This document shows, in pieces, positions 5,588 through 30,752 of a stretch of 64,000 nucleotides of DNA. Source of the stretch: Nannocystis bainbridge (GTDB lineage: Bacteria > Myxococcota_A > Polyangia > Nannocystales > Nannocystaceae); contig NZ_JAQNDL010000002.1 of the NCBI RefSeq assembly GCF_028368995.1, positions 609,724-673,723 on the forward strand. Reading direction: 5' to 3'. The notes beneath the pieces were generated by a model. It saw only the letters and a program-made list of their open reading frames with translations, had not been told where the DNA came from and did no database searches. Each line of letters opens with the position of its first letter. Within the stretch, counting starts at the first letter, position 1. The translations under genes and the position numbers were made by a program.

Positions 5588-8494
<2,907 letters not shown>

Positions 8495-8625
8495 GCGGCG
8501 GGATGTCTTCGAGGGCATGTCCCGATGGACATGTCTTGGAGAGAATGTCCTCGGGGACATGTCGATGTGAGCATGTCATTCGGGACATGTTCTTGAGGGC
8601 GTGATACGCAGCACGGCCGTGGTTT
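8495..8625. repeat. REP-like CATGTCC/GGACATG repeat cluster
   Basis: gggatgtcttcgagggcatgtcccgatggacatgtcttggagagaatgtcctcggggacatgtcgatgtgagcatgtcattcgggacatgttc. Confidence 0.65.
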
Positions 8626-8646
8626 GCGTGGTGAGGGCCGCCGGGC

Positions 8647-9504
8647 ATGCCTGAAGACAGGGTGGCGATGCGAGTGAGGGATTGTCCCAGGCGGCGCGGA
8701 CGCGGAGCGGTGGTGGCCCTGGCGCTGCTGGGTTGCCCGGCGGGCGAGGTCGCGGAGCTCGAGGGGGAGGAGCCGGCCTGCGCGCGGCCGGGCGGGCGCG
8801 GGTTCGCATTCTCGGGGGCGCCCGAGACGTTCGTGGTGCCCGAGTGCGTGACGAGGCTGACGGTCGAGCTGTGGGGCGCGCAGGGCGGGCCGAGCCGCTG
8901 CGGGACCGACGAGGGGTCTGCTCTGCCGGACCTGCAGATGGACGGCGGACGCGGCGGCTGGCTGCGCGCCGAGGTGCCGGTCCGCCCGGGCGAGGTGGTG
9001 CTGGTGCGCGTGGGCGGGCGCGGCGGCCTCGACGGCGCGCCGGGCTGGAACGGCGGCGGGCGCGGGGGCCGGTGGGCCGGCGGGGGCGGCGGTGGATCGG
9101 ACTTCCGGATCGGCGGGGCGAGCTTGATCGATCGCGCGCTGGTGGCCGGCGGCGGAGGCGGCGGTTCGTGCGGCTTTCCGGACCACGGGGCGGGCGGCGC
9201 CGGCGGCGGGCTGGTGGGCGAGGACGGGACTGTCGGCGAGGCGCCCTGGATCGCGGGCGGTGGCGGCCGACAGCTCGCGGGCGGCGAGGCAGGTTCAGCG
9301 CCGGGGCAGGCGGGGGTGTTCGGGCTCGGCGGCGGGGCAGCCCGCTACCACGTGGCCGGCGGCGGGGGCGGCTGGTACGGGGGTGGCGGGGCGTACGGGG
9401 CGGGCGGCGGCGGCGGTTCGTCGCACGCGAGCGGGGAGGCGAGCGCGGTGGAGAGCGAGGCGGGGGCGCGCGGCGGAGACGGGGCGGCGCAGATCTACTG
9501 GTGA
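8647..9504 (+). CDS. Glycine-rich secreted protein/lipoprotein (Gly_rich-like family); start possibly ATG at 8671
   Basis: Signal peptide with LLGC lipobox, an ordered N-terminal region (FVVPECVTRLTVELWGAQGG), then GGGGG-rich repeats. Composition differs from antisense artefacts (Tyr/Trp/Phe present). Confidence 0.45.
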   Translation: MPEDRVAMRVRDCPRRRGRGAVVALALLGCPAGEVAELEGEEPACARPGGRGFAFSGAPETFVVPECVTRLTVELWGAQGGPSRCGTDEGSALPDLQMDGGRGGWLRAEVPVRPGEVVLVRVGGRGGLDGAPGWNGGGRGGRWAGGGGGGSDFRIGGASLIDRALVAGGGGGGSCGFPDHGAGGAGGGLVGEDGTVGEAPWIAGGGGRQLAGGEAGSAPGQAGVFGLGGGAARYHVAGGGGGWYGGGGAYGAGGGGGSSHASGEASAVESEAGARGGDGAAQIYW

Positions 9505-9524
9505 GACCGAAGGGAAGACGGGCG

Positions 9525-9725
9525 TCGAGGCGTGGGGGCGATGGAGATGTCCGAGAGGACATGTCGAGATCGGCGAGCGCATCGGGTCATCGCGGTGGAT
9601 GATGGTGTCTTTGGGGACATGTCCATGGGGACATGTTTCGAGCGGGTGGGTCGGGGCGCGTCGCCGAGGATGTGTTTCGGACATGTCTCGAAGGACATGA
9701 CAAAAGCTCGCGGGTGACGGGGGAC
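9525..9725. repeat. REP-like CATGTCC/GGACATG repeat cluster
   Basis: gagatgtccgagaggacatgtcgag ... ggggacatgtccatggggacatgtttcgag ... gtttcggacatgtctcgaaggacatgac. Confidence 0.65.
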
Positions 9726-9978
9726 ACAGCGTGGTTTGCGTGCCCGCCTGCTGCGCTTCATGCCTACAGAGCGCAGGGGTGGCCGTGCGGAGCGTGTTCG
9801 AAGGTCGAGGGTCGGGGGTGCTCCCGAGCGTCGGCCCATCCCGGCTGCCGGGGCGACGGCGGCGGTAGATCCTGCGGCTGAAACAGACCTCCACTCGACC
9901 CGCCGGCCCGGCTTCCCCCCTCTGTCGCGGCCGGCGGGTTTTCTTTTGCCGGGGTCGTGGGGCATCCTCGCGGCGCGC

Positions 9979-10860
9979 ATGTCCGCCCCCGATCGCTGCA
10001 TCTTCGCCGCCGATGGCACCCGTGTGGTCTACCGCCGCGAGGGCGAGGGGCCGGCGCTGCTGCTCTGCAATGGGATCACGACCTCGGGGTTCTTCTGGAC
10101 CCATCTGGTGCCGCGGTGGGCCCGGCGGTTCACGGTGATCACGTGGGACCTCAAGGGCCACGGGCGCAGCGAGCCGGCCCGGTCGGCGGCGGGCGTCGAG
10201 ATCCCGGCGCTGGCGCGCGACGCGTTGCAGATCCTCGACGCCGAGGGGCTGGCCGACGCGGTGCCGGTGGGGTTCTCGATGGGCTGTCAGGTGGCGCTCG
10301 AGATCTATCGCGCGGCGCCGCAGCGGGTGCGCGGGCTGGTGCTGCTGCTCGGGTCGTCGGGGCGGGTGTTCGACACGGCGCTCGGGCCGGTCGGGCCGGC
10401 GCTGCACGGGCTCATCGCCCGGCTGTCGCGGCCGGGCTTTCGCGTGGCGTTCGGCGGGCTGCGCCGGATCGTGGGCATGCCGGGCGGTCGGCGGCTCGGC
10501 CGGCTGCTCGGGCTCGTCGGCCCCGCGGCCGAGCCGGCCGACGTGCAGCTGTTCATCGACCACTTCGTGCGCGAGCTCGACCCGGGTACGCTCGCGGCGA
10601 TGGCGCTGGCGGCCCAGCGGCACAGCGCGGCCGACCTGCTGCCGCGTATCGCGGTGCCGTCGCTGGTGGTGGCCGGCGACCGCGACGTGTTCGCGCCGGC
10701 GCTCCGGGTGGGGCTGCCGCTGCATCGCGCGATCCCGGGCAGCCAGCTGCTCCGCCTGGCCGAAGGGACGCACACCAGCCTGTTCGAACACCACGAAGAG
10801 ATCGGGGCGGCGGTCGAACGGTTCTGCGAGGGCCTCACGGGGCGCCGCGAGGTCGGGTAA
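9979..10860 (+). CDS. Alpha/beta hydrolase fold protein
   Basis: HGxP-like oxyanion region (LLLCNGITTSGFFW), nucleophile elbow GFSMGC, C-terminal Asp/His region. Real start MSAPDRCIF is internal to ORF 9736..10860. Confidence 0.7.
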   Translation: MSAPDRCIFAADGTRVVYRREGEGPALLLCNGITTSGFFWTHLVPRWARRFTVITWDLKGHGRSEPARSAAGVEIPALARDALQILDAEGLADAVPVGFSMGCQVALEIYRAAPQRVRGLVLLLGSSGRVFDTALGPVGPALHGLIARLSRPGFRVAFGGLRRIVGMPGGRRLGRLLGLVGPAAEPADVQLFIDHFVRELDPGTLAAMALAAQRHSAADLLPRIAVPSLVVAGDRDVFAPALRVGLPLHRAIPGSQLLRLAEGTHTSLFEHHEEIGAAVERFCEGLTGRREVG

Positions 10861-10869
10861 AACGGCGGC

Positions 10870-12156
10870 ATGCGCCGCTTCGCCTCGCTTACTCTCCTCC
10901 TCGCCGCCTGCAGCACCGCTGCGGCCACCACCGGCCCCGATCCGAGCGCCGGGGGCACCGACAGCTCGGACTCGCAGAGCGGCTCGACGACGCTCGACGA
11001 CCTGACGGCGCCCGGCGGCACGACCGGAGGCTCCGGGGTGCCGACCACCGGCGAGGGGACCGACACGCTCGATCCGAACGCCACGGGCACCACCAGCGGC
11101 GGCGCCGAGCAGGACTACGAGGCGCCCGGGCCGGCGCCGGTCGGCAACGCGACGTTCTCGGTGGTCGCCGGCGATCGCACGCTGCTCGTGGAGGCGTGGT
11201 ACCCGGCCGACGCGTCGGCGCAGGCGGCCGCCGAGGCCGGGCACCCGATCGCGGAGTTCGTGCCGGAGGGCCCGCAGCGCGACGAGATGGTGGCGCTGCT
11301 GGGCCAGCTGTCGGAGCACGGGCAGGTCGGCGTGCGCGAGCAGACCCGCTCGGCCCGCGGGGCGGCGTCGGCGGGCGCGGGGCCGTACCCGCTGGTGATG
11401 TTCTCGCACTGCCACGGCTGCGTGCGCTTCTCGATGTTCACGATCGCCGAGCGCCTGGCTAGCCACGGGTTCGTGGTGGTCGCGCCCGATCACACGGGCA
11501 ACACCCTGTTCGACGAGCCGCAGGCGCCGCTCGACGAGGCGTTCCTGCAGGTCCGCGTGGCTGACCAGCGCGCGGTGCTCGACGCGGTGCTTGACGCCGG
11601 CAACTCGGCGGTCCCGGAGGCGATCCGCGGGGCCATCGATGCGACCCGGATCGGGGCGATGGGGCACAGCTACGGGGCGGCGACGGCGGGGCGGCTGGCG
11701 CAGGAGGACGACCGGATCGTGGCCGCGCTGCCGATCGCGGCGCCGGTGCAGAACCCGATCTTCTCCGGCACCAAGCTGGCCGAGATCGTCGAGCCGCAGC
11801 TGTTCGTGCTGGCGGTCGAGGACAACAGCATCGGCAAGATCGGCAACCAGCTGATCGAGTCGAACTTCGACGCCGCGGCGACGCCGACCTACCTGGTGCG
11901 GATGAAGGACACCGGCCACTGGGGCCCGACCGACATCTGCGGGCTGGCCGAGCAATTCGACGCGGGCTGCGGGCCCGGCACGCGCCAGACCGACGGCAGC
12001 GAGTTCGTGTACCTGGCGCCGGTCGAGGCGCGGGCGATCGTGGCGAGCTACGCGGTCGCGTTCTTCGACCACCACCTGCGCGGCAACGCGGAGGCGCAGG
12101 CGTTCCTGCAGACGGCGACGCCGCCCGAGGTGGTCGAGGTCGAGGCGCGGCTGTAG
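10870..12156 (+). CDS. Secreted lipoprotein alpha/beta hydrolase (lipase / PAF-acetylhydrolase-like)
   Basis: Signal peptide with LAAC lipobox, Thr/Gly/Ser-rich linker, GHSYGA nucleophile elbow, PDHTGNT motif. Confidence 0.6.
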   Translation: MRRFASLTLLLAACSTAAATTGPDPSAGGTDSSDSQSGSTTLDDLTAPGGTTGGSGVPTTGEGTDTLDPNATGTTSGGAEQDYEAPGPAPVGNATFSVVAGDRTLLVEAWYPADASAQAAAEAGHPIAEFVPEGPQRDEMVALLGQLSEHGQVGVREQTRSARGAASAGAGPYPLVMFSHCHGCVRFSMFTIAERLASHGFVVVAPDHTGNTLFDEPQAPLDEAFLQVRVADQRAVLDAVLDAGNSAVPEAIRGAIDATRIGAMGHSYGAATAGRLAQEDDRIVAALPIAAPVQNPIFSGTKLAEIVEPQLFVLAVEDNSIGKIGNQLIESNFDAAATPTYLVRMKDTGHWGPTDICGLAEQFDAGCGPGTRQTDGSEFVYLAPVEARAIVASYAVAFFDHHLRGNAEAQAFLQTATPPEVVEVEARL

Positions 12157-12254
12157 CGGAATCATCTGGCTAAAAGGACAGCTAGCGATCGGGCTCACGC
12201 GGCGAGCGGACGCGCGGGCCAATTGATCGCGGGTCCAAAGTCACCGACCCTTCG

Positions 12255-13991
12255 ATGTCGTCCGACGCACCGCTCATTCACCAGCTCCTGGAGCAGCTCG
12301 AGCTCGAGGGGATCACGCACGTCTTCGGGGTGCCGGGCGGGCCGCTCAGCGCGCTGTTCGAGGCGCTCAAGGCCCGCGGACGCATGCGCTTCGTGCTGGC
12401 GCGGCACGAGGCGGGCGCGGCGTTCATGGCCAACGCGTACGCGCGGGTCCGCGGCGAGCCGGCGGTCTGCTGCGTGACCTCGGGGCCGGGGGCGACCAAT
12501 GCGCTGACGGGGGTGGCCTCGGCGCACGCGGACTCGCTGCCGGTCCTCTACCTGACGGGGCAAGTGGCGACGGGGATGTTCGGGCTGGGGGCGATCCAGG
12601 AGAGCACGTGGCACGGGGTCGACGTGGTCGAGATCCTGCGGCCGGTGACGAAGCTTTCGACGATGGTGGTGACGGCGCAGATGGGGATGCGGCTGCTGCG
12701 GCACGCGCTGCGCACGGCGACGACGGGCCGCCCTGGGCCGGTCCACCTCAACATCCCGGCCGACCTGGCGCGGGTGAAGGTGCCGTACGAGGTGCGCGAG
12801 CCGGGCAGCTACCGCCCGCCGTGCGTGTCGGTGGCGCGGGCCGAGGACGTCGAGCACGCGGCGCGGCTGCTGGCAGGCGCGCGCAGGCCGACGCTGTTCG
12901 CCGGCCACGGGGTCGCGCTGGCGAGAGCCGAGCCGGCGCTGCGGCGGCTGGCAGAGCGGCTGCAGGCGCCGGTGGTGACGTCGCCGAAGGGCAAGTCGGT
13001 GTTCCCCGAGGATCACCCGCTGTCGCTCGGCGTGTTCGGGATGGGCGGCCACACGCGAGCGGACCGCTGGCTCGAGGACGACGACGTGATCCTGGTGATC
13101 GGCTCGAGCCTCGGCGAGTTCGCGTCGAGCGCGTGGAGTCAGCGGCTGCGCGCGCCGGTGGCGTTCGTGCAGGTCGACGTCGATCCGCTGCAGATCGGCA
13201 AGAACTACCCGGTGACGCTCGGCCTGGTCGGTGACGCGCGCGCGACCGTGGAGGCGATCACGGCGGCGCTGCCGGGGGGTCCGTCGCGGCCGGCGTCGGA
13301 GGCGGTGGCGAAGCTGAAGCGCGAGGTGCCGCGGTGGGAGCAGCCGGAGCAGCGCAGCGCGGAGGCGTCGCCGCTCTCGCCGCCGCGGGTGATCACCGAG
13401 CTGCGCGCGGCGCTGCCCGATGACGGGCTGCTGTTCGTCGACACCGGCAATTCGAGCCTGTGGGCCGGCCATCACTTCGAGGCGCGGCGGCCGGGCACGT
13501 ACTTCATCGACATGGGATTGGCGGCGATGGGCAGCGCGGTGGCAGGGGCGATCGGCGGGGCGCTGGCGGCCCCGGGGCAGCGGGTGGTGGTGCTGACCGG
13601 CGACGCCGCGTTCGCGATGCACGGCTTCGAGGTCCACACCGCGGTCGAGCTCGGGCTGCCGGTGACGTGGGTGGTGCTCGACAACGCGGGTCACGGGATG
13701 ATCCAGCAGGGCGAGCAGCTGGCGTTCGGCGGCGACGCGGGCTTCTACGGGTTCCGTCACCGGATCGACGCGGCGATGGTGGCGCGTGGGTTCGGGGCGG
13801 TCGGGGTCGAGGTCGAGGACGTGAAATCACTGCGGTCGGCGCTGCGCGAGGCGCTGGCGGGATCGCGGCCGACGGTGATCAACGTGCGCGTCGACCCGAC
13901 GGTGATGGCGCCGACGCTGGCCCGCCGCGCCAGCGCGGTGGCAGAGTTCTTCGGCACGGCGCGCGCGCTCGGCCCGGCAGGTGCGGCGTGA
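12255..13991 (+). CDS. Thiamine-diphosphate-dependent enzyme, acetolactate synthase large-subunit family (possible acyloin synthase)
   Basis: N-terminal Pyr domain (GITHVFGVPGGPLSALFEAL ... AFMANAYARVRGEPAVCCVTSGPGATN), central domain, C-terminal ThDP-binding motif (VVVLTGDAAFAMHGFEVHTAVELGLPVTWVVLDNAGHGMI). Confidence 0.8.
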   Translation: MSSDAPLIHQLLEQLELEGITHVFGVPGGPLSALFEALKARGRMRFVLARHEAGAAFMANAYARVRGEPAVCCVTSGPGATNALTGVASAHADSLPVLYLTGQVATGMFGLGAIQESTWHGVDVVEILRPVTKLSTMVVTAQMGMRLLRHALRTATTGRPGPVHLNIPADLARVKVPYEVREPGSYRPPCVSVARAEDVEHAARLLAGARRPTLFAGHGVALARAEPALRRLAERLQAPVVTSPKGKSVFPEDHPLSLGVFGMGGHTRADRWLEDDDVILVIGSSLGEFASSAWSQRLRAPVAFVQVDVDPLQIGKNYPVTLGLVGDARATVEAITAALPGGPSRPASEAVAKLKREVPRWEQPEQRSAEASPLSPPRVITELRAALPDDGLLFVDTGNSSLWAGHHFEARRPGTYFIDMGLAAMGSAVAGAIGGALAAPGQRVVVLTGDAAFAMHGFEVHTAVELGLPVTWVVLDNAGHGMIQQGEQLAFGGDAGFYGFRHRIDAAMVARGFGAVGVEVEDVKSLRSALREALAGSRPTVINVRVDPTVMAPTLARRASAVAEFFGTARALGPAGAA

Positions 13992-14944
13992 TCGGCGAGG
14001 TCGGGATCCTCGGCTTCGGCCACGCGCTGCCGGACTGCATCCGTCACAACGACGATCCGCTGTTCGCCGCGCTGCCGCCGGCGGGGCCGTTCACCGGGTT
14101 CCGCGAGCGCCGGGTGCTGGCCGCGGGCGAGCGCGTCGAGACGCTCGGGGTGCGCGCGGCCCGGGCCGCGCTGGCGGACGCGGGCGTGGCGGCGGGGGCG
14201 ATCGATCGCCTGTACGGCGCGGTGTCGCCGTCGGAGCACCTGCTGCCGAGCGGGCTGTTCGCGCTGCACGCCGAGCTCGGGCTGCGCAGCGACGCGACGG
14301 TGGTGCCGATCGGCGGCGAGTTCGTCAACTTCGTGGTCGCGCTGACGAGCGCGTGTGAGGCGGTGGCGGCCGGCCGCTGCGAGCGGGCGCTGGTGGTGGT
14401 GGCGGCCGGCTGGAGCCGCGTGGTCGACTACGGCGACGCGGGCGCGTTCGGGGTCGGCGACGGGGCCGGGGCGGTGGTGGTCGGCCGCGGCGGATCGCTG
14501 CGCTTCGTCGACGAGATCGGCGAGACGCACGGGGCGCTGCACGCGGCGATGACGGTGCAATTGCGGGCGCCGCGGCACGCCGAGCCGGGCGCAGGGCCGC
14601 GGCCGACGTTCGTGTTCGAGGCGGCGGCCCGCCGCGTGTACGCCGAGCTTTCGACGGCCGCGCCGGCGCGGCTGTGGGGCGCCTTGCTGGCGCGTCACGG
14701 GCTCGTGCCGGCCGAGGTCGCGCTCGTGACCCATCAGCCGAATCAGCCGGCGCTGGCGGCCTGGCAGCAGCAGCTCGGGCCGGGCGAGCTGCCGAGCGTG
14801 GTCGAGACGCTCGGCAACTGCACGCTGGCGACGTCGGCGATCGTGCTGTCGCTGCACGCCCGCACGCTGCGCTGCCGCCACGTGGTGGTGCTGGGGCTGG
14901 GGATCGGCCAGAACTTCTCGGCGCTGCTGTTGCGGCGAGAGTGA
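13988..14944 (+). CDS. 3-oxoacyl-ACP synthase III (KAS III / FabH-like) family protein; GTG start overlapping upstream stop
   Basis: FabH-like fold signatures (active-site Cys in ALTSACEAVAAG, His/Asn region ..VTHQPNQP.., ..TLGNCTLATSAIVL..). The first ~175 aa of ORF 13460..14944 are Arg/Gly low-complexity (not coding). Confidence 0.75.
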   Translation: MIGEVGILGFGHALPDCIRHNDDPLFAALPPAGPFTGFRERRVLAAGERVETLGVRAARAALADAGVAAGAIDRLYGAVSPSEHLLPSGLFALHAELGLRSDATVVPIGGEFVNFVVALTSACEAVAAGRCERALVVVAAGWSRVVDYGDAGAFGVGDGAGAVVVGRGGSLRFVDEIGETHGALHAAMTVQLRAPRHAEPGAGPRPTFVFEAAARRVYAELSTAAPARLWGALLARHGLVPAEVALVTHQPNQPALAAWQQQLGPGELPSVVETLGNCTLATSAIVLSLHARTLRCRHVVVLGLGIGQNFSALLLRRE

Positions 14945-14984
14945 AGAGATGGCCCGAAGGACAGGTCGAGGGCGCGGACGCGGC

Positions 14985-15115
14985 GGGGAGTCCGGAGCTC
15001 GCCGTAAGAGCGGGGCATGTCCTCGTGGGCATGTCCTCGCGGGCATGCCTTGAAGGACATGTCTTCATAGACATGCCGAAACGGGCATGTCCCCGGGGAC
15101 ATGCTCAGCGGCGCA
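14985..15115. repeat. REP-like repeat cluster (GCATGTCC-TCGY-GGGCATG iterated about 6x with a ~14-bp period)
   Basis: ggggcatgtcctcgtgggcatgtcctcgcgggcatgccttgaaggacatgtcttcatagacatgccgaaacgggcatgtccccggggacatgctc. Confidence 0.7.
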
Positions 15116-16440
15116 GCAGGGCCCGGCGCAGGACGCTCGGGTGGAACAGGGCGTGGCTCGGGCGCATCAGGTGCAGCACCTCGACCAGGCGCAGGTGGAT
15201 CTCGGGCGAGCGGGTCGCCGCGGCGAAGATCCGGTCGACGAGGCGGTGCATGAGCTTGAGGCCGGGCGAGACCTTGCCGGTGGTGCCGGGCCAGCGCAGG
15301 TCGTCGCTGCTGGCGGTCATGAAGGCGGCCAGGTTGCCGGCGGCGAGGCGCTTCTGGAAGCGCAGGCCGAGCGGCTGCTCCGGGCGCGCGCGCAGGGCGG
15401 CGTCGAGCACGGTGGCGGCGACGGCGGCGACGCTCATGCCCTGGCCGTAGACGGGGTTGAGGGCGCAGGCGGCGTCGCCGAGCACGACCAGGCCGGCGGG
15501 CCAGCGGCGCAGCTTCTCGTAGTGACGCAGGCGGTTCTCGGTCTTGCGGTAGCCGTGGATCGCCGAGCACGGGACCGCGCCGACGAGGGCGTCGCGCAGG
15601 GCCGGGGTCTCGAGCGCGCCGGCGAACTCGAGGAAGCCGGCCTCGTCGACGGGCGGGAAGGTGCCGCCGTAGCCGACGAGGGTGACGATGTGGCGGCCGC
15701 CCTCGACCGGATAGACGACGCCGCCGCGCGGGTTCTTGCCCGGCTTGCCCATGGCGTAGAGGACCTTCCAGTCGGGCCGCGCGGTCAGCTCGTAGAGCCG
15801 GGTGGCGTAGCCGAGCTGGGCGTCGATGACGGTCTCGGGCGGCTCGGGGTAGCCGAGCGCGGCCAGCCAGGTCGGGGCCTTCGAGGCGCGGCCGCTGGCG
15901 TCGACGACGAGGTCGGCCCGCAGGTCGTCGTCGGCGAGCTCGGGGGCGCCGCTGCGGCGGTGGACCTGGACGCCGACGATGCGCTCGCCCTGCGCCTGCA
16001 GGCCGGTGACCTCGACGCCCGAATGGACGCGCACGCGGGCGTCGGCGATCAGGGCCTCGCGCGCGAGGTACTCGAGCAAACCGCGGGTGCAGGCGCGCGA
16101 GCGCAGCTGCGAGGGCACGCGCGGGGCCTCGCCGAACGGGGTGTGCCAGGCGACGTCGTCGAGCCAGTCGATCTCGTGGGCGCCGGCGGCGGCGAGGGCC
16201 GGGCCGAGGTCGGGGAACAGCTCGCTCATGATCCGCCAGCCGCGGGTCAGGAGGACGTGCACGTGGTGGCTCTGCGGGGCGCCGGCGCGCGGGTCGGGCC
16301 CGGCCGGCAAGAGGTCGCGGTCGAGGATGGTGACGCGCTCGAAGTGACGCGTGAGCACGCGGGCGGCGAGGAGGCCGGCGATGCCGCCGCCGACCACGAT
16401 CGCGCGGCGCCGGGCCGGCGCGGAGCCTGAGGTGGACATG
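15105..16440 (-). CDS. FAD-dependent oxidoreductase / flavin monooxygenase
   Basis: N-terminal Rossmann GxGxxG (AIVVGGGIAGLLAARVL). About 445 aa with coherent sequence. The upstream part of six-frame ORF 15105..18206 is artefact. ATG at complement 16440. Confidence 0.75.
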
Positions 16441-16730: not shown

Positions 16731-17027
16731 CTGTGATCGCAATCGCAAGCGGCGCGGGCGTCGGCATTCACGGGTCTGCACCTCGGAGGTTCCGCACGGG
16801 CCTTCGCCTTGACCGCCCACCGGACCGCGTGTATCCCCAAATCGATGCTCCGGCGCGCCACCACCGCGACTACCACGACCACCCTTTCGGGTGGGGTCGG
16901 TCGCGTGCGCGTGCGCTGAGAGCCTTCTCGTCACGTCCTGCGAAGCCCCGCCCGAACCGGCGGGGCTTTGGCGCGCCTGGTGGCGTCGCTCCGTCCGGTC
17001 GGCCCTTTCGACCCGGAGAACGCCGTC

Positions 17028-18248
17028 ATGAGCCACGAACACAGCCCCCATTCCGTCCTCGACGCCCACGATCACCGCGCCCTCGGTCCGCGCCTCGGCC
17101 TGTTTCATCTGCAGGAAGAGGCGCCGGCGATGGTGTTCTGGCACCCCCGCGGGCTGGTCCTCGCCCGCGCGCTCGAAGACGCGGCCCGCCGCCGCGCCCG
17201 CGCCGATGGCTATCAAGAGGTGCGCACGCCGCAATTGCTGCGACAGCCGATCTGGGAGAAGAGCGGCCACTGGCAGCATTTCCGCCAGGGAATGTTCGCA
17301 GTCGCGGACGAGGGCTGCGGGGCGGCGCTGAAGCCGGTGAGCTGCCCGGGCCACATCCAGATCGCGCAGCGCCAGGCGCTCTCGTACCGCGACCTGCCGC
17401 TTCGCCTGTGCGAGTTCGGGCTGTGCCACCGCGACGAGCCGAGCGGGACGCTGCACGGGCTGTTCCGGCTGCGGCAGTTCACGCAGGACGACGGGCACGT
17501 GTTCTGCGCGGAGGACCAGATCGCGGCCGAGATCGTGCGCTTCTGCCAGGGCGCCCGCCAGTTCTATGCGGGCTTCGGATTCGACGAATTCGCGGTGGGG
17601 CTCTCGACGCGCCCGCCGGAGCGGGTCGGCGACGATGCGCTGTGGGACCGCGCAGAGGCGCAGCTGGCGGCGGCAGCCCGCGAGGCGGGGCTGGAGTTCA
17701 ATGTGCAGCCAGGCGAGGGCGCGTTCTACGGGCCGAAGCTCGAGTTCTCGCTGCGCGACCGCCTGGGCCGATCGTGGCAATGCGGGACGATCCAGCTCGA
17801 CTTCAACCTGCCAGAGCGGTTCGGGCTGCACTACATCGACGAGGCAGGCCAGCGCCGCCGGCCGGCGATGCTGCACCGGGCGATCTACGGCAGCCTCGAG
17901 CGGTTCCTGGCGATCGTGCTCGAGCAACACGCAGGGTCGCTGCCAGCCTGGCTGGCGCCGGTGCAGGTGGTGGTGGCGCCGGTCGGTCCGGAGCAACAGG
18001 CGGCGGCGGCGGCGGCGGTGGCGGAGATGGCGGCGGCGGGGATCCGCGCGGAGCTGGACGACCGCCGCGAGACGCTGGCCCGCCGGGTGGCAGAAGCCCA
18101 CGCGCACGGGGTGCCGATGATCGCGGTGATCGGGGCGCGCGAGGCGAGCAGCGAATCGCTGACGCTGAGGGTCGGGGCGGCGCAGCAGGTGCTGCCGCGC
18201 ATGCAAGCGGTGGCGCAGATCGCGAGGGACTGCGCGCCGCCGGTGTGA
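17028..18248 (+). CDS. Threonyl-tRNA synthetase paralog: catalytic core plus anticodon-binding domain only (lacks N-terminal TGS/editing domains)
   Basis: Class II aaRS/ThrRS motifs: QLLRQPIWEKSGHWQHFRQGMF, zinc-site CPGHIQI, motif 2 ..RLCEFGLCHRDEPSGTLHGLFRLRQFTQDDGHVF.., motif 3 ..GAFYGPKLEF... C-terminal anticodon-binding-like alpha/beta domain. Start ATG 17028 with GGAGAA RBS. Confidence 0.75.
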   Translation: MSHEHSPHSVLDAHDHRALGPRLGLFHLQEEAPAMVFWHPRGLVLARALEDAARRRARADGYQEVRTPQLLRQPIWEKSGHWQHFRQGMFAVADEGCGAALKPVSCPGHIQIAQRQALSYRDLPLRLCEFGLCHRDEPSGTLHGLFRLRQFTQDDGHVFCAEDQIAAEIVRFCQGARQFYAGFGFDEFAVGLSTRPPERVGDDALWDRAEAQLAAAAREAGLEFNVQPGEGAFYGPKLEFSLRDRLGRSWQCGTIQLDFNLPERFGLHYIDEAGQRRRPAMLHRAIYGSLERFLAIVLEQHAGSLPAWLAPVQVVVAPVGPEQQAAAAAAVAEMAAAGIRAELDDRRETLARRVAEAHAHGVPMIAVIGAREASSESLTLRVGAAQQVLPRMQAVAQIARDCAPPV

Positions 18249-18385: not shown

Positions 18386-19726
18386 TTGAAGGTGCGAGAC
18401 GGGCGGCGGTGCCTGGCCGCCAGGATGCCGACGTGGTACGGAAGAGCGGTGCAGATCCGCGACATCGAGCTCACGAACTTCCGCGGCTTCGAGACGCTCA
18501 AGTGTGAGCTCAACCCCGAGTGCACACTGTTCGTGGGGATCAACGGATCTGGCAAGACCAGTGTACTTGATGCGATCGCGGCGCTGCTATCGATGTGGAT
18601 GCGTGCTGTGGCCGGTCGATTGGATGGGGGGAGGCTCGAGCCCGACGACCGGCGGCTAGTCCGGCGGATCATCAAGGGGGTCCCGAGCCTTGAGGTTGCG
18701 GGGCCCGTGGTCGTCCATGGAACCATCTCTGGAAGAGAGGGTGAATCGCACCTTGAACGCGTGTCGTTGGACGGCACAGATTTTGTAAACAGTTCCCTCC
18801 TGTCGGAAGGGTATCGCACTGTCGAATCGGTCAGTGCAGGAGCGCAGGAAGAACTGCCGCTCTTCGCTTACTACTGCACCGGTAGACTGTGGCAAACGAG
18901 CGATGTGCAGGGAAACCTGAGGTTGCAAAGCGTGTTCGATGGCTACCGTGATTGTCTGCGCGCGGCTGTTAACCATCAGCTTCTTCAGAGCTGGATGTCG
19001 TGGCGGGAATCCGTCCGCCTGCAGGAGATCGGTCTCGCCGTGGAAAGCGGCCAGGAAATCAGGTCGGTACGAGAACCGCTGCTCGAGGTAGTTGCAAACG
19101 CAGTTACCGATTGTGTGGAAGGGGCAAAGCGGTTCTACTATTCCGTAAACCACGAGGAGCTTCGGGTCGACTTCAAGGACGGGCGAACGCTGCCCTTCCG
19201 CATGTTGTCGGACGGGTACCGCAACTTGCTGGCGCTCGTCGGCGACATCGCCTGGCGCGCCGCGCGGCTCAATCCTCATCACGGGGTAGATGCGGCCAAG
19301 GAGACCGCAGGCGTGGTGCTGATCGACGAGCTCGATCTTCACCTGCACCCGAGCTGGCAGCGGAGCGTGCTGCCGAACTTGCGGCGGGTCTTCCCGAAGA
19401 TCCAGTTCATCGCCACGACCCACTCGCCGCAAGTGCTGTCCACGGCCGAGCCGGCGTGGATCCGCGTGCTCCATCCGGACGGCAGCGTGGGCACCGTCGA
19501 GCATACGCACGGACGTGACTCCAACAGCCTGCTCGAGGACGTGTTTGGCGTCCCCGAGCGGCCCGTCGAGACGCGCGACGACATCCGGCGGCTGTTCGAC
19601 CTCATCGATCGCGGCGCGTTCGACGAGGCCGAAGCGTTGCGGGAGAAGTTGCAGGAGGACCTCGGTCCGGACGACCCTGACATCGTGCGGGCTCGAACCG
19701 CGATCGATCTCGAGAGGAATCTATGA
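18386..19726 (+). CDS. AAA/ABC-type ATPase, PtuA-like (Septu-type defence ATPase); true start possibly ATG 18425
   Basis: RecF/SMC-like Walker A (FVGINGSGKTSVLDAI), Walker B/D-loop (VVLIDELDLHLHP), H-loop (IATTHSP). GC content about 55-62%, well below flanks. Confidence 0.65.
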   Translation: MKVRDGRRCLAARMPTWYGRAVQIRDIELTNFRGFETLKCELNPECTLFVGINGSGKTSVLDAIAALLSMWMRAVAGRLDGGRLEPDDRRLVRRIIKGVPSLEVAGPVVVHGTISGREGESHLERVSLDGTDFVNSSLLSEGYRTVESVSAGAQEELPLFAYYCTGRLWQTSDVQGNLRLQSVFDGYRDCLRAAVNHQLLQSWMSWRESVRLQEIGLAVESGQEIRSVREPLLEVVANAVTDCVEGAKRFYYSVNHEELRVDFKDGRTLPFRMLSDGYRNLLALVGDIAWRAARLNPHHGVDAAKETAGVVLIDELDLHLHPSWQRSVLPNLRRVFPKIQFIATTHSPQVLSTAEPAWIRVLHPDGSVGTVEHTHGRDSNSLLEDVFGVPERPVETRDDIRRLFDLIDRGAFDEAEALREKLQEDLGPDDPDIVRARTAIDLERNL

Positions 19727-20349
19727 TCTCGGCCCCAAAGGGGAGCGCGCCGTCCTGTCTCACCACGCTGGCCGCCACGCCGGGGGCCGACTGGGACAGC
19801 GTGTACGGCGACCAGAAGCAATCGATGCGGGATGCGCTCGTGCGTGACCAGGGGTCGCTCTGCGCGTACTGTCAGCGGCGAGTGAAGGCGACCGAGGCCG
19901 ACATGCGCATCGATCACTGGCACCCGCGCGAGCGCGGCGGAGGTGTGTTCCAGTGGAACAACCTCGTCGGCTCGTGCGCCGATCGTGTGACCTGCGACGC
20001 GGCGAAGCAGGAGACCCGGCTGTTCCTTCATCCTGCGCGCGGGCTGGGGCCCGATCCGCGGCAGTTCCTGCGCTACACCGGCTCGGGCGAGGTGGTCGCC
20101 GACGACGAGCGGGCGCGTGCCGACACGCGTACGCTCGGTCTCAACGACGATCGCCTGGTCCGGGCCCGGCGGGCGGTGCTGGACGCCCTCCGCGGATGGA
20201 TCGCGCGGCGCGAGCGGTCAACGGCAGAGCTCCAGCGACAGATCGTGCTCCTGGAGTCGCCTGCAGGCGAGGCCCCGGAGTATGCGGCGACTCGTGCCTA
20301 CTATTTCCGCAAATGGTCGAGGGCGCGGGGAGCAGCCGTGGAGCGGTGA
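19723..20349 (+). CDS. HNH endonuclease, PtuB-like partner of the ATPase
   Basis: CAYCQRR ... DHWHPRERGGG ... WNNLVGSC = Cys-rich HNH/His-Me finger. ATGA overlap with upstream ATPase. Confidence 0.6.
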   Translation: MISAPKGSAPSCLTTLAATPGADWDSVYGDQKQSMRDALVRDQGSLCAYCQRRVKATEADMRIDHWHPRERGGGVFQWNNLVGSCADRVTCDAAKQETRLFLHPARGLGPDPRQFLRYTGSGEVVADDERARADTRTLGLNDDRLVRARRAVLDALRGWIARRERSTAELQRQIVLLESPAGEAPEYAATRAYYFRKWSRARGAAVER

Positions 20350-20753: not shown

Positions 20754-21824
20754 ATGACCGTCAACGTCCCCAAGCCCATCACCGCGCTCGAGGCGCTGGA
20801 GCGCGCGCAGTGGATCGCGTTCGCTCCGTTCGTGTTTCAGGCCGCCCGCGTGCTGCGCGACCGCGGGATCCTCTTCGCCATCGAACGCAGTCGGGACGGG
20901 CTCACGCTCGAGGAGGTCGCGGCGGCGGCGGAGCTGCCGATCTACGGGACGCGGGTGGTGCTCGAGGCGGGGCTGGGGATCGGGCTCGTGACCGAGGTCG
21001 AGGGCCGCTATCGCATCACCAAGACCGGCGTGTACGTGCAGCACGATGCGATGACGCGCGCCAACTTCGACTTCACGCGCGACGTGAACTACCACGGGAT
21101 CGCGGGGCTCGACGCGGCGGTGGCGTCGGGCAAGCCGGAGGGGCTGAAGGTGTTCGGCGAGTGGCCGACGGTGTACGCCGGGCTGTCGCAGCTGCCGGAG
21201 TCGGTGCGCAAGTCGTGGTTCCAGTTCGACCACTACTACTCCGACGGGGCGTTCGGCGCGGCGCTGCCGCTGGTGTTCGCAGGCAAGCCGAAGCGGCTGC
21301 TCGACATCGGCGGCAACACGGGCAAGTGGGCGACCGCGTGCATGAAGCACGACCCCGACGTCGAGGTGACGCTGATGGACCTGCCGGGGCAGCTGCGCAA
21401 CGCGGAGCAGAACCTGCGCGCGGCGGGGCTGCTGGCGCGGGCGCGCTTCCACGAGGCGGACCTGCTCGACGACGCCACGGCGATCCCGGGCGAGTTCGAC
21501 GCGATCTGGATGAGCCAGTTCCTCGACTGCTTCTCGGAGGCCGAGATCGTGTCGATCCTGCGCCGCTGCGTGGCGGCGGCCGGGCCCAATTGCAAGATCT
21601 ACATCCTCGAGGCGTTCTGGGACCGTCAGCGCTTCGAGGCCGCCAGCTTCTGCCTGCAGATGACTTCGCTGTACTTCACGGCGATCGCCAACGGCACCAG
21701 CCAGATGTACCGCTCGACGACGTTCCTCGCGTGCGTGCACGCGGCCGGCCTCGAGGTCGAGCGCGAGTACGACGAGCTCGGGGTCAGTCACACGCTGCTG
21801 GTGTGCCGGCCACGCGCGATGTGA
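20754..21824 (+). CDS. Class I SAM-dependent O-methyltransferase (family 2, with N-terminal dimerisation domain)
   Basis: SAM motif LLDIGGNTGKW, MDLP, and a C-terminal region typical of plant/bacterial small-molecule O-MTs. Confidence 0.8.
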   Translation: MTVNVPKPITALEALERAQWIAFAPFVFQAARVLRDRGILFAIERSRDGLTLEEVAAAAELPIYGTRVVLEAGLGIGLVTEVEGRYRITKTGVYVQHDAMTRANFDFTRDVNYHGIAGLDAAVASGKPEGLKVFGEWPTVYAGLSQLPESVRKSWFQFDHYYSDGAFGAALPLVFAGKPKRLLDIGGNTGKWATACMKHDPDVEVTLMDLPGQLRNAEQNLRAAGLLARARFHEADLLDDATAIPGEFDAIWMSQFLDCFSEAEIVSILRRCVAAAGPNCKIYILEAFWDRQRFEAASFCLQMTSLYFTAIANGTSQMYRSTTFLACVHAAGLEVEREYDELGVSHTLLVCRPRAM

Positions 21825-21883
21825 GCGACGCGGCCCGCGGGTGAAGAAGGGTCGCCGGGTCCGATCGGCGACCGCGGCGCCGC

Positions 21884-23203
21884 GTGGCGAGCGTACGCTA
21901 CGTTGGCACGATGCTCGCCGCCGTGCTCGCGCTGCTCGCCGCCCCGATCGTGACGCCGGGCCAGGACGCGCACTACTGGCTGAGCAACGGGCTCGAGGTG
22001 ATCCTGCGCCACGATCGGCGGGCGCCGCTGGTGGCGGTGCGGCTGCGGATCCACGCCGGCAGCGTCGACGATCCGCGCGGTCTCGGCGGGCTGGCCCACG
22101 TGGTCGAGCACGTGGCCCACGAGGGCTCGCGGCACGTCGACCGCGAGCGCCGCGAGACGCTCGAGTACATGCTGTCGGCCCACGCCAACAACGCGGAGAC
22201 CGGGTTCTACGCGACGGAGTACTACTACACGGCGCCGGCGCAGGCGACCGAACACGTGCTGTGGTTCGAGGCCGATCGCCTGGGCTTCGTGCGCGGGCAA
22301 CACGGGGCGCCGACGCTGGCCAACGTGCGGCGGATCGTGGTCAACGAGCGACGCGAGCGGGCCGAGCAAGATCCGCTGGCGCGGCTCGAGATCCAGGCGC
22401 TGGCGGCGTTGTTCCCTGCGGGGCACCCGTACCACGCGGCGATCATCGGCACCGCGGAGGAGCTGGCGGCGGCGACGATCGCCGATGTCGACGCGTTCGT
22501 GGGCGAGTGGATGCACCCGGGCAACGCGACGCTGGTGATGGTCGGCGATCTGCCGGCCGAGACGCCGGGGTGGATCGAGCGTCAATTCGGCAACCTGCCA
22601 GCGACGCCGCGACCGCCGGCCCGCGCGGTGCCGATAGTGACCCGAACGAGCGAGCTGCGATTGAGCGCCGAGCGACCGGTGGGCGCTGCACCGGCGGTGC
22701 TGCTGGCGTGGCCATCGCCAGCGCTCGACGCCGACGGTGACGCGGCCGCCGATGTGCTGGCGGAGGCGCTGGAGCGCGGTGGATTCGCCCGGCTGGCACG
22801 GTCCGGGGTGCCGACGGAGACGGCCGAATTCCAGGCGGTCCAGCGCAGCTTGCCGAACCAGTCGGTGTTCTTCGTGCGGGCGCTCGGGCGCGTCGGCGGC
22901 GATCCGACGCGGCTGCTGGCGGAGGTCGATCGGGTGCTGGGACGCGTGGCCGCGGGGGCGCTGGACGAGGCCGCGGTGCGTCGCGCGCGGCTGCGGATCG
23001 CGCGAGCGCATCGCAGCGCGCAGCAGGATCTGCAGGACCGCGCGGAGCTGCTGGCGAGCGAGGCGGCGGCCGGCAAGCCGCTCGGTGGTTCGCAAGATGT
23101 CGCGGAGTGGTCGGCGGTGACGCCCGCGGCGGTGGCCCGGTTCGCGCGCGAGGTGCTGCGGCCCGACGCGCGTGTGGCAGTGCTGGCGGAGGGCGAGCGA
23201 TGA
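21884..23203 (+). CDS. M16 family zinc peptidase, active subunit (HxxEH)
   Basis: HVVEHVAHEGS inverted zinc-binding motif, downstream Glu region, signal-like N-terminus. Confidence 0.75.
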   Translation: MASVRYVGTMLAAVLALLAAPIVTPGQDAHYWLSNGLEVILRHDRRAPLVAVRLRIHAGSVDDPRGLGGLAHVVEHVAHEGSRHVDRERRETLEYMLSAHANNAETGFYATEYYYTAPAQATEHVLWFEADRLGFVRGQHGAPTLANVRRIVVNERRERAEQDPLARLEIQALAALFPAGHPYHAAIIGTAEELAAATIADVDAFVGEWMHPGNATLVMVGDLPAETPGWIERQFGNLPATPRPPARAVPIVTRTSELRLSAERPVGAAPAVLLAWPSPALDADGDAAADVLAEALERGGFARLARSGVPTETAEFQAVQRSLPNQSVFFVRALGRVGGDPTRLLAEVDRVLGRVAAGALDEAAVRRARLRIARAHRSAQQDLQDRAELLASEAAAGKPLGGSQDVAEWSAVTPAAVARFAREVLRPDARVAVLAEGER

Positions 23204-30651: not shown

Positions 30652-30752
30652 GCGCGCCTGCGCGATCGTGAGGCGCGGCCGCGGGGCTGCCGTCGCGCTG
30701 CATCGGCTCGTATTCTCGGGGCCCGCGACTTCGCCGTCGCGACAGGAGCCCC

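What the first reader, a model, noticed from the sequence alone, without database searches (positions are those of the whole stretch)
9979..16440. Compact candidate acyloin-type biosynthetic locus (ThDP enzyme, KAS III, flavin monooxygenase, two hydrolases)
Two alpha/beta hydrolases lie head-to-tail (9979..10860, and lipoprotein 10870..12156). They are followed by an acetolactate-synthase-family ThDP enzyme with no small regulatory subunit (12255..13991) and a translationally coupled FabH-like KAS III (13988..14944, GTGA overlap). A convergent FAD-dependent monooxygenase follows (15105..16440, minus). ThDP-dependent carboligases paired with KAS III-like acyltransferases are the core of acyloin natural-product pathways (e.g. 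xenocyloin XclA/XclB/XclC, sattabacin-type). No PKS or NRPS is present. A small diffusible acylated acyloin or a signal molecule is the most economical prediction.
Basis: inference. Interest (0 to 1): 0.55.

Follow-up and report, generated by a model that had tools for sequence, protein, structure and literature searches.

The report
Two-gene ThDP plus KAS-like cassette
Only two of the five flagged genes form a conserved unit: a thiamine-dependent carboligase coupled to a cysteine-less FabH-like enzyme, a small natural-product cassette of the kind known from cyanobacterial and myxobacterial butenolides, so the locus is a modest new example of a known kind.

Summary
All five ORFs exist as described. 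One correction: the flavoenzyme is 15105..16439, not ..16440. The window matches Nannocystis bainbridge.

Only ThDP enzyme 12255..13991 and KAS III-like 13988..14944 (GTGA overlap) form a conserved unit. DNA homology to three other Nannocystis genomes covers only 12199..14963. No hydrolase, flavoenzyme or ThrRS homologue appears in any related locus.

The ThDP enzyme is not IlvB. Its best solved relative is BbmA (547 bits, against 269 for E. coli ALS I). The literature describes BbmA and CsmA as CybE homologues, that is, alpha-hydroxy-beta-keto acid synthases of furanolide-type pathways.

The partner has a KAS III fold but cannot be FabH. Cys112 is replaced by Phe after an acidic residue; His and Asn are kept. 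This Cys-less family (about 185 clusters at 50% identity) lies next to BbmA- or CsmA-like ThDP genes in Myxococcota-type MAGs, a Brevibacillus-type contig and Thermosporothrix, and is twice fused to them.

Most likely function: two 2-oxo acids are joined, and the product is then processed into an acylated acyloin or butenolide.

I could not test membership in the CybF family itself, because no CybF sequence was reachable. Interest is modest.

The parts
12199..12254 (+). Conserved leader of the cassette. It is the only part of the 98-bp ABH2-ThDP spacer shared with other Nannocystis genomes.
   Evidence: blastn homology to L003 starts at 12199, and to L001 and L002 at 12220. Sequence read.
12255..13991 (+). 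[quoted passage not shown]
   Evidence: TPP_enzyme N, M and C domains. Below every NCBIfam acetolactate-synthase cut-off. Best PDB match is BbmA 8x3x: 547 bits, residues 7-576, 46% identity by BLASTP. 91-92% identical orthologues in N. exedens, N. punicea and N. pusilla.
13988..14944 (+). Cys-less KAS III-fold partner, 318 aa, translationally coupled to the ThDP gene by a GTGA overlap.
   Evidence: Overlap read. 100% identical to the NCBI entry '3-oxoacyl-ACP synthase [Nannocystis bainbridge]'. FabH Cys112 is replaced by Phe112, preceded by Glu111, while His249 and Asn277 are kept. AlphaFold2 model has pLDDT 89.3, with TM 0.85-0.90 to FabH, PqsD and PqsBC.

Best explanation
The functional unit is a self-contained two-gene cassette, window 12199..14944. 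It is not a five-gene cluster.

Gene 1 is a ThDP-dependent carboligase of the CybE/CsmA/BbmA type. By analogy with those enzymes, it decarboxylates a donor 2-oxo acid (probably an arylpyruvate) on ThDP. It then adds the resulting carbanion to the keto carbon of a second 2-oxo acid. The product is an alpha-hydroxy-beta-keto acid, a bulky analogue of acetolactate.

Gene 2 is translationally coupled to gene 1. It has a KAS III fold but has lost the nucleophilic Cys (Glu-Phe in its place), while keeping the His/Asn pair that in ketosynthases stabilises the enolate formed on decarboxylation. I infer that it binds the labile beta-keto acid made by gene 1 and decarboxylates it. It would then couple the enediolate, without an acyl-enzyme intermediate, to an acyl thioester from primary metabolism. 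The result would be an acylated acyloin that cyclises to a butenolide (furanolide-type gamma-lactone).

Shown here: domain content, the closest relatives, loss of Cys, conserved pairing, gene fusions, and the lack of conserved neighbours.
Inferred: substrates, the chemistry of gene 2, and the lactone product.

My estimates: about 0.9 that this is a two-gene specialised-metabolite cassette of the BbmA/CsmA/CybE kind, and about 0.45 that the product is a butenolide or furanolide.
For: Relatives of the ThDP enzyme:
- BbmA (547 bits) and CsmA (277 bits) are the top solved relatives, above all acetolactate synthases (at most 269 bits).
- BbmA is a Brevibacillus protein.
[quoted passage not shown] Pairing with the KAS-like gene:
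- A ThDP gene lies next to a Cys-less KAS-like gene in the window, L001-L003 (Nannocystis), L004-L009 (metagenomes and MAGs), the P0021 locus, L013 (87% BbmA homologue), L016 and L080 (Thermosporothrix hazakensis).
- L008 pairs a CsmA-like ThDP gene (387 bits to CsmA) with a Cys-less KAS-like gene.
- Fusion proteins exist in both orders: P0186 and P0202.

Extent of the conserved unit:
- Homology with other Nannocystis genomes ends at the cassette borders.

Active site of the partner:
- 82 of 128 near-full-length family sequences carry [ED][FY] at the Cys112 site, with His and Asn kept.
- No Cys or Ser is invariant in the family alignment.

Other support:
- L080 adds a prephenate dehydratase, a supplier of phenylpyruvate.
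- The furanolide literature describes CybF as catalysing 'decarboxylative O-acylation' followed by ring closure (PMC13288894).
- Plesiocystis and Enhygromyxa, myxobacteria that PMC8777810 links to (deoxy)enhygrolide production, carry bare cybE/cybF pairs without the rest of the cyb operon (PMC8777810).
Against: - No CybF, MacF or myxobacterial CybF-homologue sequence could be reached, so similarity to a characterised furanolide synthase is untested.
- Known CybF homologues are 368-376 aa (PMC8777810, Table S6). The window protein is 318 aa and its family median is about 328 aa.
- A second, Cys-bearing, ThDP-linked KAS III clade of 352-378 aa exists. On length it may be the true CybF clade. It is only 26-32% identical to the window protein.
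- No ammonia lyase, CoA ligase or ACP is present in the 64 kb window.
- FabH's CoA-contact residues W32, R36 and R151 have no counterpart in the alignment, so use of an acyl-CoA is uncertain.
- Some ThDP homologues at 52-53% identity have no KAS partner.
- One weak family member, L018, shows no ThDP gene in the 1.4 kb upstream that is available.
- I know of no furanolide reported from Nannocystis. This rests on my own knowledge and was not searched exhaustively.
Confidence: 0.6

Rival explanations
1. ABH1, ABH2 and the convergent flavin monooxygenase would be tailoring or turnover enzymes for the ThDP/KAS product, for example lactone opening by enol-lactonase- or dienelactone-hydrolase-like enzymes and epoxidation or hydroxylation by the Lsd18-like enzyme.
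For: - Tight spacing on one strand: ABH1 to ABH2 is 9 bp and ABH2 to ThDP is 98 bp, with no consensus promoter or terminator found between them.
- ABH1's best NCBIfam hits are 3-oxoadipate enol-lactonases, and ABH2 hits the dienelactone hydrolase and PETase families. Those families act on butenolide-type lactones.
Against: - The three other Nannocystis genomes share only 12199..14963 with the window.
- None of the four neighbours has a homologue within 10 kb on either side there, or in any other fetched locus.
- All ABH hits are far below family cut-offs, for example 97 bits against 256 for PcaD, so the lactonase reading rests on a generic fold.
- ABH2 is an exported lipoprotein.
- The flavoenzyme is convergently transcribed. 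Its relatives Lsd18 and MonCI act on polyether polyketides.
Confidence: 0.12
2. The cassette makes a free or C-acylated acyloin with no lactone, as in the sattabacin, kurasoin or xenocyloin type. The Cys-less KAS-like protein would act only as a dedicated beta-keto-acid decarboxylase or stereocontrol partner, or as a non-catalytic scaffold like PqsB in PqsBC.
For: - Loss of the nucleophile with His and Asn retained mirrors decarboxylating KS variants such as KSQ/CLF (established knowledge; residues).
- CoA-contact residues are absent, and no acyl-activating gene is nearby.
- Thermosporothrix hazakensis, a reported acyloin producer (own knowledge: Park et al. 2014), has a homologous pair.
- PqsBC is among the best structural matches, with TM up to 0.90.
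Against: - alpha-Hydroxy-beta-keto acids decarboxylate spontaneously (noted as a shunt in PMC8777810), so a dedicated enzyme conserved this strongly, and twice fused to the ThDP enzyme, suggests more than decarboxylation.
- The many invariant polar residues (R19, N21, D22, D23, R41, R42, H94, N114, Y148, D158, H249, N277) argue against a pseudo-enzyme.
Confidence: 0.22
3. Primary metabolism: an IlvB-type acetolactate synthase and the housekeeping FabH.
For: Generic annotations only: 'acetolactate synthase large subunit' and '3-oxoacyl-ACP synthase' in the public records.
Against: - The ThDP enzyme is below every ALS equivalog cut-off and far closer to BbmA.
- No ilvN or ilvC is present in the window.
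- The KAS-like protein lacks Cys112 and scores 69-92 bits against FabH models whose cut-offs are 249-292.
- The family is small and patchy in distribution.
Confidence: 0.02

Closest known systems
BbmA (Brevibacillus, PDB 8x3x/8x3y/8xod) and CsmA (PDB 8x3z): ThDP-dependent alpha-hydroxy-beta-keto acid synthases (Liu et al., Nat. Chem. 2025; known here only through citations in PMC12395478 and PMC13307353)
   Same: - Full-length match to BbmA: 547 bits, 46% identity. CsmA scores 277 bits.
- The gene next to an 87% BbmA homologue is a Cys-less KAS-like protein of the same family as the window's, 37% identical, with motif PIHSDFSNY.
- A CsmA-like ThDP gene is likewise linked to a Cys-less family member.
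   Different: - Different phylum (Myxococcota rather than Firmicutes) and only 46% identity.
- Substrate-lining residues were not compared.
- The primary paper could not be read, so I do not know whether its authors characterised the KAS-like partner or any end product.
CybE/CybF furanolide core pathway (cyanobacterin, nostoclide and maculalactone in cyanobacteria; proposed for enhygrolides and deoxyenhygrolides in Plesiocystis and Enhygromyxa)
   Same: - Same two-enzyme logic: a ThDP acyloin-type condensation of two 2-oxo acids, followed by a protein annotated as 3-oxoacyl-ACP synthase III that builds the lactone.
- In the myxobacterial examples only the E/F pair is co-localised, as here (PMC8777810).
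- BbmA and CsmA are called CybE homologues (PMC12395478).
   Different: - Cyanobacterial clusters carry four core genes, B, C, E and F, including an ammonia lyase and a CoA ligase (PMC13288894). Neither is in this window.
- CybF homologues are 368-376 aa, against 318 aa here.
- The window protein has no catalytic Cys. A separate Cys-bearing, ThDP-linked clade of 352-378 aa exists and may be the real CybF clade.
- Direct sequence comparison with CybF was not possible.
FabH / KAS III and KAS III-like enzymes PqsD, PqsBC, CerJ and DpsC
   Same: Same fold: TM 0.85-0.90 for the model, and 21-28% identity. The His and Asn of the catalytic triad are conserved.
   Different: - Cys112 is replaced by Phe, with an acidic residue at position 111 and Asn at 114 (motif PIxxEF[TS]NF).
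- No alternative invariant Cys or Ser exists.
- Residues corresponding to FabH W32, R36 and R151 are missing.
- It therefore cannot work through the usual acyl-Cys intermediate.
Xenocyloin XclA/XclB/XclC
   Same: General idea only: a ThDP acyloin synthase plus KAS III-like acylating proteins. This rests on my own knowledge of Proschak et al. 2014.
   Different: No Xcl sequence was available, so this was not tested. The window has one KAS-like gene rather than two. The nearest characterised ThDP relatives found were BbmA and CsmA, not XclA.

Membership tests
CybE/CsmA/BbmA-type ThDP alpha-hydroxy-beta-keto acid synthases | Three-domain ThDP enzyme (TPP_enzyme N, M, C) of the acetolactate-synthase superfamily | tested here: met
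   Pfam E-values 2.7e-36, 5.4e-44 and 2.2e-36.
CybE/CsmA/BbmA-type ThDP alpha-hydroxy-beta-keto acid synthases | Closer in sequence to a characterised member than to AHAS, ALS or other ThDP families | tested here: met
   BbmA 547 bits and CsmA 277 bits, against E. coli ALS I 269, yeast AHAS 251 and HACL 209. CybE itself was not available.
CybE/CsmA/BbmA-type ThDP alpha-hydroxy-beta-keto acid synthases | Encoded next to a KAS III-like gene rather than ilvN/ilvC | tested here: met
   GTGA overlap in the window. The same adjacency is seen in L001-L009, L013, L016 and L080.
CybE/CsmA/BbmA-type ThDP alpha-hydroxy-beta-keto acid synthases | Catalyses coupling of two 2-oxo acids to an alpha-hydroxy-beta-keto acid | not testable with these tools
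   Needs an enzyme assay.
CybF-type furanolide synthase | KAS III (thiolase-like) fold | tested here: met
   ACP_syn_III hit. AF2 model pLDDT 89.3, TM 0.85-0.90 to FabH, PqsD and PqsBC.
CybF-type furanolide synthase | Significant sequence similarity to CybF, MacF or the P. pacifica or E. salina homologues | not testable with these tools
   No such sequence was reachable.
CybF-type furanolide synthase | Protein length about 368-376 aa, as in the four described homologues | tested here: not met
   The window protein is 318 aa and its family median is about 328 aa, against 1107-1131 bp genes in PMC8777810 Table S6. Length is only a weak criterion.
Furanolide BGC (cyanobacterial cyb, ncl and mac type) | Four core genes: ammonia lyase (B), CoA ligase (C), ThDP enzyme (E) and furanolide synthase (F) | tested here: not met
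   No aromatic ammonia lyase or AMP-binding ligase among the window ORFs scanned. The myxobacterial pairs in PMC8777810 also lack B and C nearby.
FabH (KAS III of fatty-acid synthesis) | Cys112-His244-Asn274 catalytic triad and a score above the TIGR00747 or NF006829 cut-off | tested here: not met
   Phe at the Cys112 position. Scores of 69.4 and 92.2 bits against cut-offs of 292 and 249.
IlvB / biosynthetic acetolactate synthase | Reaches the TIGR00118 cut-off and is encoded with ilvN (ilvC) | tested here: not met
   385.5 bits against a cut-off of 538.35. No ilvN or ilvC in the window.
Polyether epoxidases Lsd18 / MonCI (for the neighbouring flavoenzyme 15105..16439) | Sequence similarity, plus location in a polyether PKS cluster | tested here: inconclusive
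   Similarity is met: 249.5 bits to Lsd18/LasC and 221 bits to MonCI. No PKS is present in the window. The substrate is unknown.
Xenocyloin XclABC | Sequence similarity to XclA (ThDP) and XclB/XclC (KAS III-like) | not tested

The most novel reading that the evidence does not exclude
The [Glu/Asp]-[Phe/Tyr] Cys-less KAS III-fold proteins that accompany BbmA- and CsmA-like ThDP enzymes could be an uncharacterised enzyme family. They would be distinct from the Cys-bearing, ThDP-linked clade that may contain CybF. On this reading they form C-O or C-C bonds on a ThDP-made alpha-hydroxy-beta-keto acid without any acyl-enzyme intermediate, and possibly without a CoA thioester. The product would be a scaffold other than the known furanolides. 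The family is widespread: about 185 clusters at 50% identity, seen here in Nannocystis, myxobacterial MAGs, a Brevibacillus-type contig and Thermosporothrix.
Probability: 0.3. Interest if true: 0.6.

Novelty: new member of a known kind. Interest (0 to 1): 0.35.

Why it matters
The result shrinks a speculative five-gene cluster to a precise 2.7-kb, two-gene target. That target could be cloned directly from Nannocystis bainbridge to look for a butenolide- or acyloin-type metabolite. I know of no such compound reported from this genus.

It also flags an enzymological question. A whole family of FabH-fold proteins is always linked, and sometimes fused, to BbmA/CsmA-type carboligases, yet it has replaced the catalytic cysteine with Glu-Phe. 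How it handles the labile beta-keto acid product is unknown from the literature I could read.

Furanolide-type butenolides include phytotoxins, antibiotics and signalling mediators. New family members therefore have some value for biocatalysis and chemical ecology. As a genomic finding, however, this is one more small orphan cassette of a recently described kind.

Tried and rejected
1. The cause was a one-base frame error, now corrected.
2. Literature searches for BbmA, CsmA and 8X3X found nothing relevant, and the primary paper is not held. The link came indirectly through PMC12395478 and PMC13307353.
3. I tried to obtain a CybF sequence in several ways. The SI of PMC8777810 and PMC12395478 has only images or no sequences. 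tblastn against plasmids gave no match. Cluster look-ups gave no organism names. A PDB search with a Cys-bearing relative found no CybF or MacF structure. afdb50 was unavailable.
4. The metagenome scan with the family alignment used a generic FabH motif ([IV]GDGA[GA]A[VA]V). It returned mostly ordinary FabH genes, and only L016-L018 were family members.
5. Composition-based picking of a cyanobacterial CybE among the ThDP hits was uninformative.
6. I considered the truncated ThrRS as a self-resistance marker for the cassette and rejected it. It is absent from all other cassette loci.
7. I considered the primary-metabolism IlvB/FabH reading and rejected it.

Full report
**What is there**

The window is about 73% GC. 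Its KAS III-like protein is 100% identical to an NCBI entry from Nannocystis bainbridge.
- ABH1, 9979..10860.
- ABH2, 10870..12156, a lipoprotein with N-terminus MRRFASLTLLLAAC.
- A three-domain ThDP enzyme, 12255..13991.
- A KAS III-like gene, 13988..14944, whose GTG overlaps the ThDP TGA.
- A convergent flavoenzyme.

The flavoenzyme's true coordinates are 15105..16439. I found no ilvN, ilvC, PKS, NRPS, ACP, ammonia lyase or CoA ligase among the ORFs scanned across the 64 kb.

**How far the unit extends**

A genome scan with the KAS-like protein found orthologues in N. pusilla, N. exedens and N. punicea (L001-L003, 83-87% identity). tblastn of 15 window proteins against those 21-kb loci recovers only the ThDP enzyme and the KAS-like protein. 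The reverse search agrees. blastn places the homology at window 12199/12220..14944/14963. That is the two genes plus 35-56 bp upstream.

The conserved unit is therefore a 2.7-kb, two-gene cassette that sits in different neighbourhoods in different genomes. In N. bainbridge it lies a few kb from a low-GC Septu (PtuAB) island.

**The ThDP enzyme**

It falls below every NCBIfam acetolactate-synthase cut-off; for TIGR00118 it scores 385 against 538. Against solved structures the best match is BbmA (8x3x): 547 bits over residues 7-576, and 46% identity by BLASTP. CsmA follows at 277 bits. E. coli ALS I scores 269, and eukaryotic AHAS 251 or less.

UniRef names the 8x3x sequence BbmA from Brevibacillus. 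[quoted passage not shown] The primary paper (Liu et al., Nat. Chem. 2025) is not held.

CybE is the ThDP enzyme of cyanobacterin biosynthesis. It condenses two 2-oxo acids (PMC12395478, PMC13288894).

**The KAS III-like protein**

It scores only 69-92 bits against FabH models whose cut-offs are 249-292. Alignments to FabH and PqsD put Phe112 at the catalytic Cys position, while His and Asn are kept.

Its close family is small in the word-indexed search, at about 21 proteins. A profile search of 1.84 billion representatives gives 185 clusters at E <= 1e-30.

Among 128 near-full-length sequences from these searches, 82 carry Phe or Tyr at the Cys112 position. An acidic residue almost always precedes it, and His244 and Asn274 are retained. 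The 35 sequences with Cys are FabH-like proteins or belong to a separate clade. The family alignment has no invariant Cys or Ser. Its invariant polar residues are R19, N21, D22, D23, R41, R42, H94, N114, Y148, D158, H249 and N277.

An AlphaFold2 model (pLDDT 89.3) superposes on FabH, PqsD and PqsBC with TM 0.85-0.90. The protein is therefore a KAS III-fold enzyme that cannot use the canonical acyl-Cys mechanism. That alone excludes it as the housekeeping FabH.

**Linkage of the two genes**

Every family member with enough flanking sequence lies next to a ThDP gene.

| Locus | Arrangement |
|---|---|
| L001-L003 | Nannocystis orthologues |
| L004/L005, L006/L007, L009 | Adjacent, often overlapping |
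| L008 | CsmA-like ThDP (387 bits to CsmA), O-methyltransferase, KAS-like |
| P0021 locus | Divergent neighbours |
| L013 | 87% BbmA homologue followed by a KAS-like gene, 37% identical to the window's, motif PIHSDFSNY |
| L016 | ThDP C-terminus upstream of the KAS-like gene |
| L080 | Thermosporothrix hazakensis: ThDP, KAS-like (38% identical, PINSEFSNF), prephenate dehydratase, MFS transporter |

Two representatives are fusion proteins, one in each order: P0186 is ThDP-KAS and P0202 is KAS-ThDP.

There are exceptions:
- ThDP homologues at 52-53% identity are followed by a 144-aa ORF and a SnoaL-like gene instead of a KAS-like gene.
- One weak family member, L018, has no ThDP gene in its short available flank.

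**Relation to CybF**

The furanolide literature describes CybF, annotated as a 3-oxoacyl-ACP synthase, as the enzyme that fuses the CybE product with coumaroyl-CoA. [quoted passage not shown]

Plesiocystis pacifica and Enhygromyxa salina are marine myxobacteria. They carry co-localised cybE/cybF homologues without the rest of the cyb operon, and these are proposed to make deoxyenhygrolides and enhygrolides (PMC8777810). The window cassette has the same architecture.

I could not obtain any CybF sequence, so direct membership is untested. Two observations urge caution:
- The described CybF homologues are 368-376 aa, against 318 aa here.
- A second KAS III-like clade of 352-378 aa keeps the Cys. 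In the two cases I examined it is also ThDP-linked: L014 is ThDP-VOC-KAS and L079 is ThDP-KAS. It is only 26-32% identical to the window protein.

On length, CybF may belong to that clade. On the other hand, both structurally characterised 'CybE homologues' have relatives that pair with the Cys-less family. I leave this question open.

**Mechanism proposed**

Step 1 rests on homology to BbmA, CsmA and CybE. The ThDP enzyme decarboxylates a donor 2-oxo acid and adds it to a second 2-oxo acid, giving an alpha-hydroxy-beta-keto acid. The prephenate dehydratase in the Thermosporothrix locus hints at arylpyruvate substrates.

Step 2 is inferred. The KAS-fold partner uses its retained His/Asn oxyanion site to bind and decarboxylate this beta-keto acid. 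It then couples the enediolate to an acyl thioester directly, without an acyl-enzyme, and ring closure gives a butenolide.

Some observations count against step 2:
- FabH's CoA-contact residues are missing.
- No acyl-activating gene is nearby.

A free acyloin, or some other product, therefore remains a serious rival.

**Neighbours**

ABH1 and ABH2 hit enol-lactonase and dienelactone-hydrolase-type families, but far below the family cut-offs. The flavoenzyme resembles the polyether epoxidases Lsd18 and MonCI. A species-specific tailoring or turnover role cannot be excluded. It has no comparative support, and ABH2 is exported.

**Verdict**

I file the cassette as a new member of a known kind, the CybE/CsmA/BbmA-type carboligase with a KAS III-like partner. 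There is a residual chance, about 0.3, that the Cys-less partner family represents chemistry not yet described.

Noticed in passing
window 16968-18248 (+): A threonyl-tRNA synthetase of only 426 aa. It matches TIGR00418 positions 170-548, so it lacks the N-terminal TGS and editing domains. About 530 bp of apparently non-coding sequence lies upstream. It could be an auxiliary or antibiotic-insensitive ThrRS copy. It is absent from all other cassette loci.
   Followed up: partly
window 18386-20349 (+): A Septu-type defence pair: PtuA (NF041760, 244 bits) and PtuB (NF041761; TIGR02646 above its cut-off). It lies in a GC dip (0.657 against about 0.74), which suggests a horizontally acquired island next to the cassette.
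   Followed up: no
window 15105-16439 (-): A flavin monooxygenase with strong similarity to the polyether epoxidases Lsd18/LasC (249.5 bits) and MonCI (221 bits), yet no PKS is present in the 64 kb window. Its substrate is unknown.
   Followed up: partly
window 20754-24666 (+): A 'FlxJ family' O-methyltransferase (488 bits, cut-off 560) followed by two M16-family peptidase genes (21884-23203 and 23299-24666).
   Followed up: no
window 30672-33248 (+): An 858-aa protein with major vault protein Shoulder and Vault_3 repeat domains plus a Band_7 domain, that is, a bacterial MVP-like protein.
   Followed up: no
window 8647-9504 (+): A 285-aa protein matching the ALK/LTK glycine-rich domain (PF12810, E 4e-19), a domain best known from animal receptor kinases.
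   Followed up: no
L001 8239-9974 (Nannocystis pusilla Na p29): The ThDP orthologue is split into two frames (8239-9198 and 9195-9974) and is annotated as a 319-aa protein (P0066). This is either a frameshift or pseudogene in that strain, or an assembly error.
   Followed up: no
P0186 (928 aa) and P0202 (935 aa), metagenomic proteins: Natural fusions of the ThDP enzyme and the Cys-less KAS-like enzyme, one in each domain order.
   Followed up: yes
L014 7798-11119; L079 2023-4926: A second KAS III-like clade that keeps the catalytic Cys (352-378 aa) is also encoded directly downstream of ThDP enzymes. In L014 a glyoxalase/VOC gene lies between them. It may be the clade that contains CybF.
   Followed up: partly
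L080 6001-9575 (Thermosporothrix hazakensis sequence): A ThDP enzyme (50% identical to BbmA), a Cys-less KAS-like gene, a prephenate dehydratase and an MFS transporter. This organism is a reported acyloin producer, and the locus hints at phenylpyruvate as substrate.
   Followed up: partly
L010-L012 (myxobacterial MAG contigs): ThDP homologues 52-53% identical to the window enzyme have no KAS partner. Instead a conserved convergent 144-aa ORF follows, usually with a SnoaL-like gene. This may be a different downstream chemistry for the same carboligase clade.
   Followed up: no
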